From the NCBI GenBank assembly GCA_964016885.1, contig OZ024743.1:347510001-347574000 (forward strand): DNA of 64,000 nt. The letters are read 5' to 3'. Below the pieces are notes generated by a model, which was not told the DNA's origin, searched no databases, and worked only from the letters and a program-made list of their open reading frames with translations. The DNA comes from Eledone cirrhosa (lineage: Eukaryota). The translations under genes and the position numbers were made by a program. Positions 1-31,842 of this stretch are shown here, piece by piece. Position 1 is the first letter of the stretch; every line of letters begins with the position of its first letter.

Positions 1-950
1 GGAATAAAATCATATAACACTCACCATCTACCAACACCGATACACGAGGCACCATTTACTCTATGATGTTACGCAAACTCACTTTCCAAGCCTCAAATAT
101 ACATACAAACAGCGCAAAACACGCTTACGGGTCAAGAATACATATGCAACGTATGAAAAAAAAAACGTAGACAGATTCACATATATTTATAATTATAAAC
201 TTGTTCCTCACAACCAAATAAACATAAACAATGAGCCTTAACATTCTCAACGCATCATAAGAATCTCAACTAAATACCGACTGCCTACCCCAATGAGAGA
301 CACGCACAACTAAGCACACATACCACACTTCCAAAACATAATGAAATAACATGATCATAACCCTCTGTCATAAATTATGTACAAAATATATATGAAAATA
401 AGCAATTACACAACATCGATATAACATCTACACACAATAGCACACTTAAAAGATGTACATCTATATATGTTTAAAAGAAAACCCTAATAAAAAGATAATG
501 ACGCCAGATTTGGTTCGAAATGCCTGAAAGAAAAAAAAACTGCCACAAACAGATCTGATGAATTATAGACATAAATATATTAGCAAACATGACACCTGAT
601 CCAACCAGACGCATAAAACGTAATCTTGACGAGAGACTAGCCAAAAATTCATTACCCTACTCTCCAACTCTACTTCTAAAACGTTATTTTAATCACACAG
701 ATATCTCTACAGAGTTACATCCCAAGCTATTTTAACCTTTTTAAATGTTTCGTTTTCATTTTTATTGCTGTCTTCCGCTCTACTTTTTCTGTGTATGTCT
801 AACCTTAGAATCAAGATATAACTCTGCCTCTGATGAGATATTCAATGAGAAAATATAATACACACCATTTGATTTTAATTTCCTATTTTCTCATCGAAAA
901 GCAATGTTTTAGGGGAAACCATAAACAAATTATTTAAAAAAAAAATGAAT
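1..950 (+). mobile_element. Highly decayed Penelope-like retroelement remnant (RT thumb/GIY-YIG relic) ending in a hammerhead motif
   Basis: G-poor sequence with faint resemblance to PLE motifs in broken frames, followed by an HHR-like motif at 826-915. No open frame remains. Confidence 0.4.
826..915 (+). ncRNA. Degenerate type I hammerhead ribozyme (family A)
   Basis: CTGATGA at 830-836; helix II GAT..GAGAAAATA/TATTTTCTCATC; GAAA at 896; helix III AAGC-aat-GTTT, then UUA site at 911. Helix I is weak (CCT/GGG). Confidence 0.5.
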
Positions 951-1350
951 ACAAACAAAGGAAACAGAACTCCAGGTTCATTGGCCGATGAGGTGGAGTT
1001 TGGCAGTTTCGGCTCAACCGGGGTCACAGCGTCAGTCACAAGCCAAATGCTGTCCATTGAAGTAAGAGATGAGAGACAAAACATTAATTTATAGTAATTA
1101 AGCTACAAGAAGTAAACATAGAATTTTATGTGACGTCAGGGGAAATGTGTGGTGGCTCATGCAGGACGAGAATATTCATTGAAACAACCAAAAATAGAAG
1201 AAAAAGGCAAGAAGAAAGTAAGTTATCGTGTTAAAATGTGTTAGGCATTGCAATAAATGAGGGGGGGGGGACACATTCGCCACATTAGTATTGATAAACT
1301 TAAAGCATACCAAAAACAGGACAAGACAACGAACGAAAAACATTTCTTTT
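950..1350 (+). repeat. Unclassified interspersed repeat (copy 1 of 3)
   Basis: Aligns by eye with 1700-1918 (+) and with the reverse complement of 40895-41345 (shared caagccaaa..gtccattg..gacaaaa.attaatt.atag.aattaagcta..tgacg.cagg). Confidence 0.7.
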
Positions 1351-1351
1351 A

Positions 1352-1673
1352 ATGTACATAATGAACATAATGAACATAAACACACACAGACACCCGGATG
1401 TGGCGCATGCGCAGACTGAGCACACAACACACACACAGAAACAAAATGGCGTAGGACAGAACAAAGGAGAGGCACAGAAACAAAGAGGTCACAACGTGTG
1501 TGACGAAAGAACTATGACTATATATAAACAACTATCTGGTTGTGGAACCAACCAACCAACCAGAAATTTATAAAATTATAAATTTATTATAAATTTATTA
1601 TAATAAATTGAAGTGAAAGCAACTGGTGCGTGTGTTTCTTATTGGCAACATGACCCTCCCAAAGTATAACAAT
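1352..1673 (+). mobile_element. Penelope family B 3' UTR/pLTR fragment with the hammerhead core deleted
   Basis: Near-identical to 4850-5188 and to the reverse complement of 21028-21350. It lacks the segment containing agtca-CTGAAGA. Confidence 0.85.
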
Positions 1674-1699
1674 ACCTTAATAAATTATTATCTTAAAAT

Positions 1700-1918
1700 A
1701 AAAATACAAACGAAGGCAACTGAACTCCTGGGTCATAGACCGTTGAGGGGGACTTAGGCAGTTTCCACCCTTACCAACGGCACTGCCACCCCTTGTCACA
1801 GCGTCCGACATAAGCAAAACGCTGTCCAGTGGAGTAAAAGACGAATGACAAAACATTAATTCATTGCAATTAAGCTACATGTATACATTCAATTTTATGT
1901 GACGCCAGGCAAAATATG
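1700..1918 (+). repeat. Unclassified interspersed repeat (copy 2 of 3)
   Basis: Similar to 950-1150 and to 41130-41345 (-). Confidence 0.6.
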
Positions 1919-2650
1919 GAGAGAGAGAGAGAGAGAGAGATAGGGGGGAGAGAGAAAGAGAGAGAGAGACACAGAGAGAGAGAGAGAGAGAGAAAGAGAG
2001 AGAGAAAGAGAGAGAGATAGAGAGAGAGAGAGAGAGAGAGAGAGAGAGAAAGAAAAAAGAGAGAGAGAGAGAGAGAGAGAGGGAGAGAGAAAGAGAGAGA
2101 GAGAGATGGATATATATATATGTAGGTGTGTGTTTGTGTAAGGGGCTGAGCATCACAAAATTATAAATCCATTTATATATTATAGATCATAATATTCTGC
2201 CCTCTCATCACTTATTGGAACTAAACAGACAAATAAAAGCAAATATATATCACCACTATAAGAATACCACCCCTTTCTCCACTCACACATAAAAAAGAAA
2301 GCATTCTTCAGATGAATGACACGTGAATCAGAATTCTATCACCATTACCTCCACAGCACCAGTAACACTTCAGCGAATATATTAGTATTTTACCATTTCA
2401 AAAACCACAGGAGTAAATTTTTTTAAATGTTTAACTAAACCCTATCCCTAGCCCCACTGCCTTACTCACCTGTTCTTGCACACACACACATACATAGTCT
2501 TTCCTCACTCTCACAGTTAATCAACACCCTCACTCCCCTTCTCTCAGTTATTCACTATTTCACTCTATTTCCTCATCTCACTCTTTTATTAGGTCGTCTT
2601 CTATTTTTTATATCACGTTCATTATGTTTTATATTATTATATTATTTTAT

Positions 2651-30220: not shown

Positions 30221-30661
30221 CACAAAGCCATATATTATATATATATATATATATATATATATATATATATATATATATATATATATATATATAGTAATAT
30301 ATATATATATATATATATATATATATATATAATATGAAAGACGTAAAATAAGAAAATTATAAAAATTAACTTACTTACTAATAGATATACTAATTAACTT
30401 ACTTACTAGTAGATATACTAATTATTTATATATATATATATATATATATATATATATATATATATATATATATATATATATATATATATATATATATATA
30501 TATATATATATATATATATATATATATATATATATTTAGCTCTGATACTGGTTCAGATACTTAGCTCTGTTTCTCGACCGTTATATCACGTGACTATCTC
30601 CCCCTCCGCCTTTTGGGATTCTTTCTCACCTCATGTAGACGCGTTCTTGAAGCTAGTAAAA

Positions 30662-30762
30662 CTAGGTATCCTCTTGATAAGTCGGCAGACCTCGCAAAGA
30701 CTCTATCTTTATGATGTATTGTTTTTGTTTATGCCACGAAACTACGTAGTCGAGGAATCTAG
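30662..30762 (+). ncRNA. Type I hammerhead ribozyme with U3-A8 core (family J, copy 1)
   Basis: Helix I CTAGGT-a-TCCTC/GAGGA-ATCTAG; core TTGATAA at 30674-30680; helix II GT-c-GGCA..TGCCAC; GAA-ACTACGTAGT-C, GUC site at 30751. Confidence 0.8.
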
Positions 30763-31259
30763 GAGCAGTTTAGGTATGATACATTTTATTACTAATTATA
30801 TCTAAATGATTCTTCTCTCTTCATAATGTATTTTTAGCTCTGATACTGGTTCAGTCTAATTCAACCGGATTGGTCTGTTCCAGTCATACATAGAGCAACA
30901 TCGGTAAGGTTGGCACCATTAACTTACGGTTGGATGTGGATGCATTCATGTATATGCGTGTGTCCGCATGTATCTGTGTGTTTCTAAATATATTGTTCAT
31001 AACTCTCCCTAGTCGAGTAATCTTTGAAGTGTGGTGACTGCTGGAAAGCTGTCATTACTCATACTTCTCGACCCCTTCACCACCTCTTCTACGGCTTCTA
31101 TATAAATACCCCCTCCGCCTCCGTGGTATTATCTTCGGGGTTATAAGAGGCTTAGCTCTGTTTCTCGACCGTTGTGTCGCGTGAGTATCTCCCCCTCCGC
31201 CTTTTGGGATTCTTTCTCACGTCATGTAGACGCGTTCTTGAAGCTAGTAAAACGAGGTA

Positions 31260-31343
31260 TCCACTTGATAAGTCGGCAGACCACGCAAAGACTCTATCTT
31301 TATGATGTATTGTTATTATGCCACGAAACTACGTAGTCGAGGA
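31260..31343 (+). ncRNA. Type I hammerhead ribozyme with U3-A8 core (family J, copy 2)
   Basis: TTGATAA at 31265-31271, same helix III palindrome, GUC site at 31338; one helix I mismatch. Confidence 0.7.
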
Positions 31344-31479
31344 ATCTAGAAGCAGTTTAGGTATGATACATTTTATTACTAATTATATCTAAATGCTTCT
31401 TCTCTCTTCATAATATATATATATATATATATATATATATATATATATATATATATATATATATGTATGTATGTATGCA

Positions 31480-31842
31480 TTAGGAAAGTATATACTTTAA
31501 TACGTTTAATCATATGGCAGGAAGGTATACGATGCTAACGATAGCCAATAAGCTTGAAACTAGTACATCGTTCCTGTGTCAGTGTTGAACAAAAAGGCGA
31601 CGATGGTTTCCTGAACACTGTACGGCTTAATTCGGGCTGTTTGTTTACAAACAAACCGAACATTATAATAAATGTTCGATAAACCCATACGGACACATAT
31701 ATATATATGTGCATGTATGTATATATATACATACTACTGTACATTTGTATACATATATGTATGTACGTATACATACATACTTACATTTAAGTATCAACCG
31801 TACTAAGAGTGAGAAAGAAAATTTCCTTTCATTCTTTTCCAT
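31480..31842 (+). mobile_element. Diverged copy of hammerhead element family F (HHR at 31529-31571, core CTAACGA)
   Basis: Colinear with 15030-15338 and with the reverse complement of 14295-14650. Confidence 0.8.

What the first reader, a model, noticed from the sequence alone, without database searches (positions are those of the whole stretch)
826..31571. About 10 different hammerhead-ribozyme cassette families packed into (TA)n microsatellites within 32 kb
Seen: type I HHR folds (helix I, CUGANGA, helix II, GAAA, helix III, NUH) at 826, 4980, 7451, 7899, 8148, 9657, 13872, 14565, 15075, 17862, 18291, 18452, 20466, 21183, 27396, 27585, 30662, 31260 and 31529. The families share almost no primary sequence, yet most have a palindromic helix III (ACCGCGGT, ACGGCCGT, ACGATCGT, ACTAGT, ATGCGCAT, ACTACGTAGT) and abut (TA)n arrays. 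Established: Penelope-like elements and non-LTR retrozymes carry minimal type I HHRs with palindromic helix III, thought to cleave as dimers. Inference: this is a diverse, probably unannotated set of ORF-less ribozyme parasites mobilised by the neighbouring PLE RT/GIY-YIG proteins and targeted to (TA)n.
Basis: partly seen in the sequence, partly recalled or inferred. Interest (0 to 1): 0.88.

Follow-up and report, generated by a model that had tools for sequence, protein, structure and literature searches.

The report
Penelope-borne hammerhead ribozymes filling TA repeats
These are real hammerhead ribozyme motifs (cutting is predicted, not tested) carried by Penelope-type jumping genes and by small protein-free repeats that likely ride on them; this animal genome holds an estimated 200,000, and their mirror-image insertions nearly always pair one short end with one long end, which suggests how such insertions are made.

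Summary
The motifs are real. In the first 32 kb, 10 intact type I hammerheads pass a strict descriptor, against 0.05 in shuffles; 17 of the 19 sites fit intact or decayed family members. The 'ORF-less parasite' reading is only half right. Seven sites are 3' ends of ORF-coding Penelope-like elements (three Hydra-clade, one Neptune-type). Seven belong to closed ORF-less tandem units (retrozyme-like; 422, 474, 593 bp). Two form a short Hydra-derived palindrome. Two are undetermined and 826 is unsupported. The window is a local peak in a saturated genome: 28 motifs in 399 kb sampled, about 2x10^5 overall. Head-to-head insertions pair a short with a long 3' end (54 of 61; 17 of 17 in a second set), and both arms share private variants. 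This fits two-strand target-primed reverse transcription from one source RNA, uncut at the ribozyme. The same footprint on the ORF-less units supports Penelope mobilisation. Self-cleavage and expression are untested. This scan already noted the same system and end rule on other DNA. Verdict: new members of known kinds, with a testable mechanistic pattern.

The parts
826..915 (+). Weak, probably chimeric hammerhead-like remnant (H); not supported as an intact ribozyme
   Evidence: Helix I score 3; bases from about 896 match a different repeat; only 2 of 15 other matches cover the core region
1380..1671 (+). Deleted remnant of family A 3' end, lacking the CUGA strand
   Evidence: Self-BLAST; sequence
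4682..5245 (+). Family A: truncated 3' end of the Neptune-type PLE, with 39-nt inverted short end, hammerhead (core 4985, cut after 5019) and 59-nt tail
5329..5516 (+).
7379..7980 (-). Family B: ORF-less tandem unit of about 474 bp, two hammerheads (cores 7527 and 7975)
   Evidence: 1917 first-look candidates; period and ends; longest ORF 52 aa
8096..9992 (.). Family C: head-to-head insertion of the 3' UTR of a Hydra-clade PLE; 1.5-kb short-ended arm (-) and 0.4-kb arm with 138-nt tail (+); hammerheads 8280- and 9666+
   Evidence: 3854 candidates; structure; upstream endonuclease C-terminus in L192, 41% identical to the window ORF
10367..13681 (-). Hydra-clade PLE body; RT plus GIY-YIG open frame 11595-13571 (658 aa; DKT, CxC linker with its last Cys lost in this copy, CxxC, CxH, no CCHH)
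   Evidence: motifs compared with PMC8557442 section 11
13685..13976 (+). Inverted short-ended copy of that PLE's 3' end, with decayed hammerhead (core 13880, U4C)
   Evidence: Other copies carry the same hammerhead intact, downstream of the ORF
14299..15334 (.). Family E: ORF-less 422-bp tandem unit as a head-to-head insertion; hammerheads 14601- and 15081+; 53-nt tail
   Evidence: 961 candidates; arrays with inversions; ends
17790..17983 (+). Family I: decayed minimal hammerhead (core about 17862) in a 3' end running into TA; coding status unknown
   Evidence: Relatives 80-88% identical, some with intact CUGANGA
18250..18648 (.). Family D: short palindrome plus 88-nt tail; 3' end of a second Hydra-clade PLE; hammerheads 18348- and 18460+
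   Evidence: 1673 candidates; L303 has 1.6-kb D arms flanking a 698-aa frame 82% identical to the window ORF
20430..20640 (-). Family J: older hammerhead with long helix II (core 20596); coding status unknown
   Evidence: 101 candidates, 73-90% identity
21029..22462 (-). 5'-truncated Neptune-type PLE (frame 21440-22471; CX4CxxC linker, GIY-YIG) with family A hammerhead in its 3' UTR (core 21222)
   Evidence: 3321 candidates, tandem period 3526 bp; RVT_1 E=6e-4 in L225
22458..22564 (+). Family K 3' end
   Evidence: 90% identical to 5411-5516
27187..27304 (+).
   Evidence: Core present in 10 of 12 occurrences listed
27361..27782 (.). Family F: 340-bp palindrome plus tail, unit about 258 nt with a fixed 5' start; hammerheads 27458- (G5C) and 27593+
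   Evidence: 1135 candidates, 95-98% identity; 30 of 30 loci flanked by microsatellite on both sides
30560..31412 (+). Family G: ORF-less 593-bp tandem unit; U3-A8 core, GUC site, 10-nt palindromic helix III (cores 30674, 31265); 163-nt tail
   Evidence: 2175 candidates; U3-A8 in 65 of 65 occurrences; longest ORF 48 aa; same ends and tandem joint in run contigs
31512..31840 (+). Diverged family E copy with decayed core (31535, G5A)

Best explanation
The cassettes are type I hammerhead motifs in the 3' terminal repeats of Hydra- and Neptune-type Penelope-like retrotransposons and in ORF-less tandem units that are likely copied by the same enzymes into (TA)n. Inferred mechanism: the PLE protein nicks both strands of a TA run and primes two reverse transcripts. 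One starts at the near (short) and one at the far (long) initiation site downstream of the ribozyme, on RNA from one source locus that is not cut at the ribozyme. The two cDNAs are joined at their far ends, giving a head-to-head palindrome with a tail on one side. In D and F many cDNAs stop at one fixed point 120-130 nt upstream of the cut site, likely the capped start of a transcript from an internal promoter, so very short ORF-less palindromes arise directly from the terminal repeat. The ribozymes likely cut only as dimers through the palindromic helix III.
For: Shown: enrichment over shuffles. 26 of 28 sampled motifs lie within 250 nt of (TA)5+, against 39% of random positions. Helix III is self-complementary in 16 of 24 clusters found without a helix III constraint, null mean 1.7. 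ORFs are linked to A, C, D and 13880. Head-to-head blocks: 54 short+long, 3 long+long, 0 short+short, 4 unclassified, of 61, and 17 of 17 in a set fetched with an upstream probe; one-direction blocks use both ends. Mirrored substitutions: F 15 against 0.9 permuted, D 19 against 4.8, 0 of 5000 permutations each, with no fixed difference between arm classes. F centres vary in length 36-56 nt. 5' ends fall within 3 nt of the cut site in only 3 of 293 arms. G precedes the fixed start in 16 of 39 arms, where the native base is C. From papers: a PLE protein nicks and extends both strands, starts at two internal sites that bound the tail, and uses uncut RNA in vitro (PMC11167929). Penelope has an internal promoter in its pseudo-LTR (PMC2377424). 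Hydra elements target (TA)n (PMC8557442).
Against: No RNA or cleavage evidence was obtained. Mirrored variants could also come from conversion between arms after insertion; one-arm changes outnumber mirrored ones (36 against 15 in F, 21 against 19 in D). In E, units of one locus are hardly closer than units of different loci (3.6-4.1% against 4.3%). 14 of 30 F centres have the same 42-nt form, which whole-palindrome copying would also give. D junctions show no excess microhomology (2 of 26 with 2 nt or more, null 20%). The extra G is modest (p=0.02 against 25%). No partner PLE was found for B, E or G. Most loci were top BLAST hits, so they are biased to young, query-like copies. Clade labels rest on motifs, not on a tree.
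Confidence: 0.7

Rival explanations
1. All cassettes are ORF-less ribozyme parasites that replicate through ribozyme-cut circular RNA and rolling reverse transcription (first reader; classical retrozyme model).
For: B, E and G form head-to-tail arrays without ORFs. G units within a locus are closer (1.2-1.4%) than between loci (2.4%). One F copy has tail sequence directly before the 5' start (L046).
Against: A, C, D and 13880 lead into PLE ORFs. F extends into a longer pyrimidine-rich upstream region in 3 loci. The L046 case can equally be a snap-back. Circles were not observed. This model may still hold for B, E and G alone.
Confidence: 0.15
2. The palindromes are units copied whole (MITE-like DNA hairpins or whole-palindrome RNAs), with arms homogenised by hairpin repair.
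For: F is 95-98% identical over a fixed 422 bp. 14 of 30 F centres share one form. Arms share variants.
Against: Junctions differ between copies in D, G and B. There are no fixed arm-class differences. One-direction copies with either end are common. The same ends occur on ORF-bearing PLEs.
Confidence: 0.08
3. Inverted copies are two independent insertions into the same TA run.
For: TA runs attract many unrelated elements, and a few long+long cases exist (3 of 61).
Against: The arms join directly without TA between them. Short+long pairing is 54 of 57 classified (p=2e-13 at 0.5). A subfamily marker agrees in both arms in 7 of 7 D copies.
Confidence: 0.03
4. The motifs are chance matches in AT-rich repeats, or non-catalytic relics kept only for their structure.
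For: Rfam finds none. Several window copies are decayed. PLE hammerheads cut weakly in vitro (PMC4209133). Only 1 of 9 Xenopus retrozyme dimers cut (10.64898/2026.07.22.740005).
Against: About 200-fold over shuffles. Compensatory U3-A8 cores in G, K and L. Helix III palindromy emerges without being required.
Confidence: 0.04

Closest known systems
Hydra-clade Penelope-like elements (Craig et al. 2021, PMC8557442; passages and section 11 read)
   Same: C-terminal GIY-YIG without CCHH, DKT, CxCX5C linker, canonical hammerheads, (TA)n targets, inverted 5'-truncated copy and one-sided tail.
   Different: Tails here are 88-138 nt against 30-40 bp stated for PLEs. That paper reports few non-cnidarian Hydra families, and the passages read give no short/long pairing rule or arm concordance.
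Neptune/Nematis-type PLEs with minimal hammerheads (Cervera and de la Pena 2014, PMC4209133; parts 1-2 of 4 read)
   Same: Hammerheads in terminal repeats, palindromic helix III, extra nucleotide after A9 (family A), U3-A8 variant, and pairs on opposite strands 100-700 bp apart.
   Different: Counts there are thousands per genome (up to about 9,000 minimal motifs in Xenopus); the estimate here is about 2x10^5.
Animal non-LTR retrozymes (Cervera and de la Pena 2020, PMC7229834, part 2 of 6 and passages; Li, Clavereau and Pollet 2026, 10.64898/2026.07.22.740005, parts 1-3 of 5)
   Same: ORF-less tandem units with one type I hammerhead each, low GC, proposed to be mobilised by PLEs.
   Different: B, E and G are 422-593 bp (150-450 bp in the 2020 paper, 51-972 bp in the preprint). 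They target (TA)n and carry the PLE inversion and two-end footprint, a kind of evidence the parts read do not give. Circular RNA is not shown here.
Anolis Poseidon PLE in vitro (Frangieh et al. 2024, PMC11167929; parts 1-2 of 4 read)
   Same: Two internal initiation sites bounding the tail, both strands nicked and extended, uncut RNA as template.
   Different: That study saw no difference in start site between strands; the genomic copies here show the two strands using different sites almost always.
Non-autonomous Chlamys PLEs such as MRC1 (PMC8557442 passage)
   Same: Short non-coding PLE derivatives sharing the 3' end of autonomous families.
   Different: Green algal, and mostly without canonical hammerheads.

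Membership tests
Type I hammerhead ribozyme | CUGANGA, GAAA and UH core with helices I-III in type I order | tested here: met
   10 intact sites, 0.05 in shuffles
Type I hammerhead ribozyme | Conserved 3-8 core pair, with covariation | tested here: met
   C3-G8 in most families; U3-A8 in G (65 of 65 occurrences from overlapping loci, one lineage), K (6 of 8), L (10 of 12); variant known from PMC3088659 and PMC4209133
Type I hammerhead ribozyme | Match to an Rfam hammerhead model | tested here: not met
   0 gathering hits in the window and in 5 loci; none among the 150 of 250 E-value rows shown
Type I hammerhead ribozyme | Site-specific self-cleavage | not testable with these tools
   No assay; no raw RNA reads
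Hydra-clade PLE (10367-13976, C, D) | RT plus C-terminal GIY-YIG lacking CCHH; DKT, RWK-like and CxCX5C motifs | tested here: met
   Window frame and L303 frame (RWR, DKT, CxCX5C); for C only the endonuclease end was seen; Pfam gave no RT or EN hit
Hydra-clade PLE (10367-13976, C, D) | Phylogenetic placement within the clade | not tested
   No reference set at hand; no tree built
Neptune-type PLE (A) | RT, CX2-5CxxC linker, GIY-YIG with CCHH | tested here: met
   Neptune against Nematis not resolved
PLE insertion footprint | Partial tandems, inverted 5'-truncated copy, one-sided tail, microsatellite target | tested here: met
   A, B, C, D, E, F and G
Non-LTR retrozyme (B, E, G) | ORF-less head-to-tail unit with one type I hammerhead | tested here: met
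Non-LTR retrozyme (B, E, G) | Expressed as monomer-length linear and circular RNA | not testable with these tools
   No RNA holder listed
Non-LTR retrozyme (D, F) | Closed tandem unit | tested here: not met
   D leads into a 1.6-kb UTR and ORF; F has one ambiguous tail-to-start case and 3 upstream extensions
MITE (DNA transposon) | Fixed terminal inverted repeats copied as a unit | tested here: not met
   Asymmetric ends, variable junctions and one-armed copies

The most novel reading that the evidence does not exclude
Penelope-like elements integrate by an obligately asymmetric two-primer reaction: one enzyme dimer primes both target strands on one source RNA, at two different sites. Short capped transcripts from the terminal-repeat promoter turn this into self-propagating 0.3-0.4 kb ribozyme palindromes, and ORF-less retrozymes use the same route. 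The result is the densest hammerhead load reported for a genome in the papers read here (about one intact motif per 14 kb).
Probability: 0.45. Interest if true: 0.7.

Novelty: new member of a known kind. Interest (0 to 1): 0.5.

Why it matters
How PLEs form their tandem and inverted insertions, and what mobilises animal retrozymes, are stated open questions (PMC8557442; 10.64898/2026.07.22.740005). The pairing of one short with one long end, arm concordance and the fixed start give exact predictions for the existing in vitro PLE assay. The PLE footprint on ORF-less units is direct genomic support for PLE mobilisation. About 2x10^5 motifs in 3.0 Gb would exceed the 126,247 reported for axolotl (PMC7229834; different descriptor), yet Rfam misses them, and a 2026 octopus repeat annotation never mentions ribozymes in its main text (PMC13282606).

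Tried and rejected
Rfam scans found no hammerhead. The sequencing-run search gave no RNA holder listed. The two runs laid are contigs of unknown kind from one sample, possibly the source, so they say nothing on expression or cleavage. My early reading that D is an ORF-less family was rejected once an upstream probe showed 1.6-kb arms and an ORF. My early reading that F is a closed tandem unit was dropped. C as an ORF-less cassette was rejected. Microhomology-guided joining of the arms was not supported in D; several 'gaps' there are artefacts of my alignment walk. 5' pile-ups were not seen in G, E, B or A, and the C and Hydra1 rows of that test were swamped by TA matches and D cross-hits. In the end-pairing count I dropped F (34 of 34 short+long, but the query contained the tail) and the Hydra row (24 blocks, mostly D cross-hits). 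Monomer folding of 11 sites gave helix I probability 0.15-0.99 for nine and 0 for 826 and 17862; the helix III index in that script was unreliable and is not used. The repeat finder was swamped by microsatellites. Paper searches: hammerhead ribozyme+Penelope+octopus, hammerhead+ribozyme+cephalopod, Penelope+inverted+twin priming and octopus genome+Penelope+transposable element+microsatellite listed no paper describing these families or the end rule. The library lacks most subscription papers; Dfam and Repbase could not be searched, and no supplements were read (those of PMC8557442 may hold related cephalopod elements).
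Full report
Setting. The window is G000:C4:347510001-347574000 in a 3.0-Gb animal genome, very rich in (TA)n. An octopod host is my inference, and earlier scan notes suggest the same.

Observation. All 19 sites carry a type I hammerhead-like motif. A strict descriptor (intact core, helix I score 5 or more, helix II 3 or more) passes 10 sites in bases 1-32000 and none beyond, against a mean of 0.05 in 60 block dinucleotide shuffles. 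Two more have a damaged helix I, two carry a U3-A8 core, and three have single core changes in families whose other copies are intact. 17862 is a decayed member of a real minimal-hammerhead family. 826 is weak and probably chimeric. Rfam reports nothing at gathering score. Across 260 loci plus the window, a scan with no helix III requirement gave 240 hits in 24 clusters at 85% identity. Helix III was an exact palindrome in 12 of 24, and self-complementary allowing G-U in 16 of 24, against a null mean of 1.7. Three families (G, K, L) use the compensatory U3-A8 pair, a variant already reported (PMC3088659 passage; PMC4209133).

The window is a peak, not an exception. Forty 10-kb stretches at round coordinates (not a weighted random draw) gave 28 strict hits in 399,400 bases, against 0-2 in five shuffles. 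That extrapolates to about 2.1x10^5 genome-wide (bootstrap 1.3-3.1x10^5); ten in 32 kb has probability about 0.001 under resampling. 26 of the 28 lie within 250 nt of (TA)5+, against 39% of random positions. The axolotl figure is 126,247 motifs, by another descriptor (PMC7229834).

What each family is. A lies in the 3' UTR of a Neptune-type PLE, with frame 21440-22471, copies 97-99% identical and a 3526-bp tandem period. The site at 13872 is the inverted 3' end of a Hydra-clade PLE at 10367-13681; other copies carry the same hammerhead downstream of the ORF. C is the 1.5-kb 3' UTR of another Hydra-like PLE. D looked ORF-less, but locus L303 has 1.6-kb D arms around a 698-aa frame 82% identical to the window ORF. 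F is related to D in its 3' region (z=6.2); of 56 arms with its start motif only 3 continue upstream, into a pyrimidine-rich region. B, E and G are closed tandem units of about 474, 422 and 593 bp with ATG ORFs of 52 aa or less. I and J are undetermined. Tally of the 19 sites: 7 PLE ends, 7 ORF-less tandem units, 2 F, 2 undetermined, 1 unsupported.

Insertion anatomy. Each of A-G has two discrete 3' ends downstream of the ribozyme, 53-163 nt apart, both running into TA. Contigs of runs X1 and X2 show the same two G ends and the tandem joint, though they may be the source sample. Among head-to-head blocks, 54 of 61 pair a short with a long end, 3 are long+long, none short+short and 4 unclassified; F and a contaminated Hydra row were left out. 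One-direction blocks use both ends (D 10 short and 17 long, A 14 and 18). A second D set fetched with a 75-nt upstream probe gave 17 of 17 (24 loci after removing 8 duplicates; 7 were not paired). The arms share variants: 15 mirrored substitutions in 30 F copies (permuted 0.9) and 19 in 23 D copies (permuted 4.8), with a D subfamily marker concordant in 7 of 7 and no fixed arm-class difference. Junctions differ between copies. Only 3 of 293 arms begin within 3 nt of the cut site, and most cross it. D and F pile up at one 5' start; a G precedes it in 16 of 39 non-palindromic arms where the native base is C (p=5e-4 against 17.5%, 0.02 against 25%). Reading that G as a copied cap rests on my recalled knowledge of LINE insertions.

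Mechanism. Frangieh et al. showed in vitro that a PLE protein, predicted to be a dimer, nicks and extends both strands, starts at two internal sites that bound the tail, and uses uncut RNA (PMC11167929). Penelope has an internal promoter in its pseudo-LTR (PMC2377424 passages). I infer that each inverted insertion is one event: both target strands are primed, one at each site, on RNA from one source, and the cDNAs are then joined. Short capped transcripts from the terminal repeat would give the small D and F palindromes. The same footprint on B, E and G implies PLE mobilisation, although no partner was identified (z 2.7 or less in 12 comparisons). Against this: one-arm changes outnumber mirrored ones, so conversion is not excluded. 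E shows little within-locus similarity, 14 of 30 F centres are alike, and D junctions lack microhomology (2 of 26). Most loci are top BLAST hits. Dimer cleavage is inferred from the palindromes and from PMC4209133 and PMC6765202, not tested.

Relation to what is known. PLE hammerheads, palindromic helix III, inverted pairs, tails, (TA)n targeting and retrozymes as PLE dependants are all in print. My searches listed no paper on these families or on the end-pairing rule; a giant squid genome paper lists 235 Rfam hammerheads (PMC6962438 passage), and an octopus repeat paper has no ribozyme mention in its main text. Earlier notes of this scan describe the same system, including the short/long rule, on other DNA. 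They are unchecked AI notes; I took the short/long wording from one and tested the rule here.

Verdict. Real feature; new members of known kinds. The scale and the insertion rule give moderate interest because they make an open question about PLE integration testable. Interest 0.5.

Noticed in passing
window 27187-27304: Unlisted small hammerhead family (L) with U3-A8 core and palindromic helix III; 3 of 40 sampled stretches hold it.
   Followed up: partly
window 5329-5516 and 22458-22564: Very common family (K; 10 of 40 sampled stretches) usually truncated inside its hammerhead into a fold-back; fuller copies have a long helix III and a U3-A8 or C3-A8 core.
   Followed up: partly
window 17984-18097; L269, L270: End of another abundant TA-inserted family; longer copies hold a GAAA, long helix III and GUC-like motif, core not resolved.
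   Followed up: partly
window 10011-10293, 22593-22658, 30332-30426: Further short repeat ends between TA runs, found in 3-7 fetched loci each; not assigned.
   Followed up: no
window 2689-2857, 15686-16072, 16368-16556, 23034-23216, 23664-23780, 35387-35544, 58080-58955, 59672-59848: A 170-190 bp SINE-like repeat in about a dozen copies, 75-96% alike.
   Followed up: no
window 31813-32643, 33066-33744, 63433-64000: LINE RT fragment (RVT_1 E=5e-20) and inverted copies of an adjoining repeat.
   Followed up: no
window 46854-49910: Broken GC-rich L1/Tx1-like element with endonuclease-like and RT frames (RVT_1 E=1e-11).
   Followed up: no
L148:7331-7694: A D-like palindrome whose centre holds about 250 nt of unrelated sequence, possibly captured RNA or a later insertion.
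   Followed up: no
D loci L031-L060, L273-L304: The short-ended arm reaches further 5' than the long-ended arm in 16 of 23 junctions, against 5 the other way.
   Followed up: partly
genome G000 (earlier scan notes): Notes report an abundant hammerhead with scrambled strand order in this genome; I did not search the window for it.
   Followed up: no
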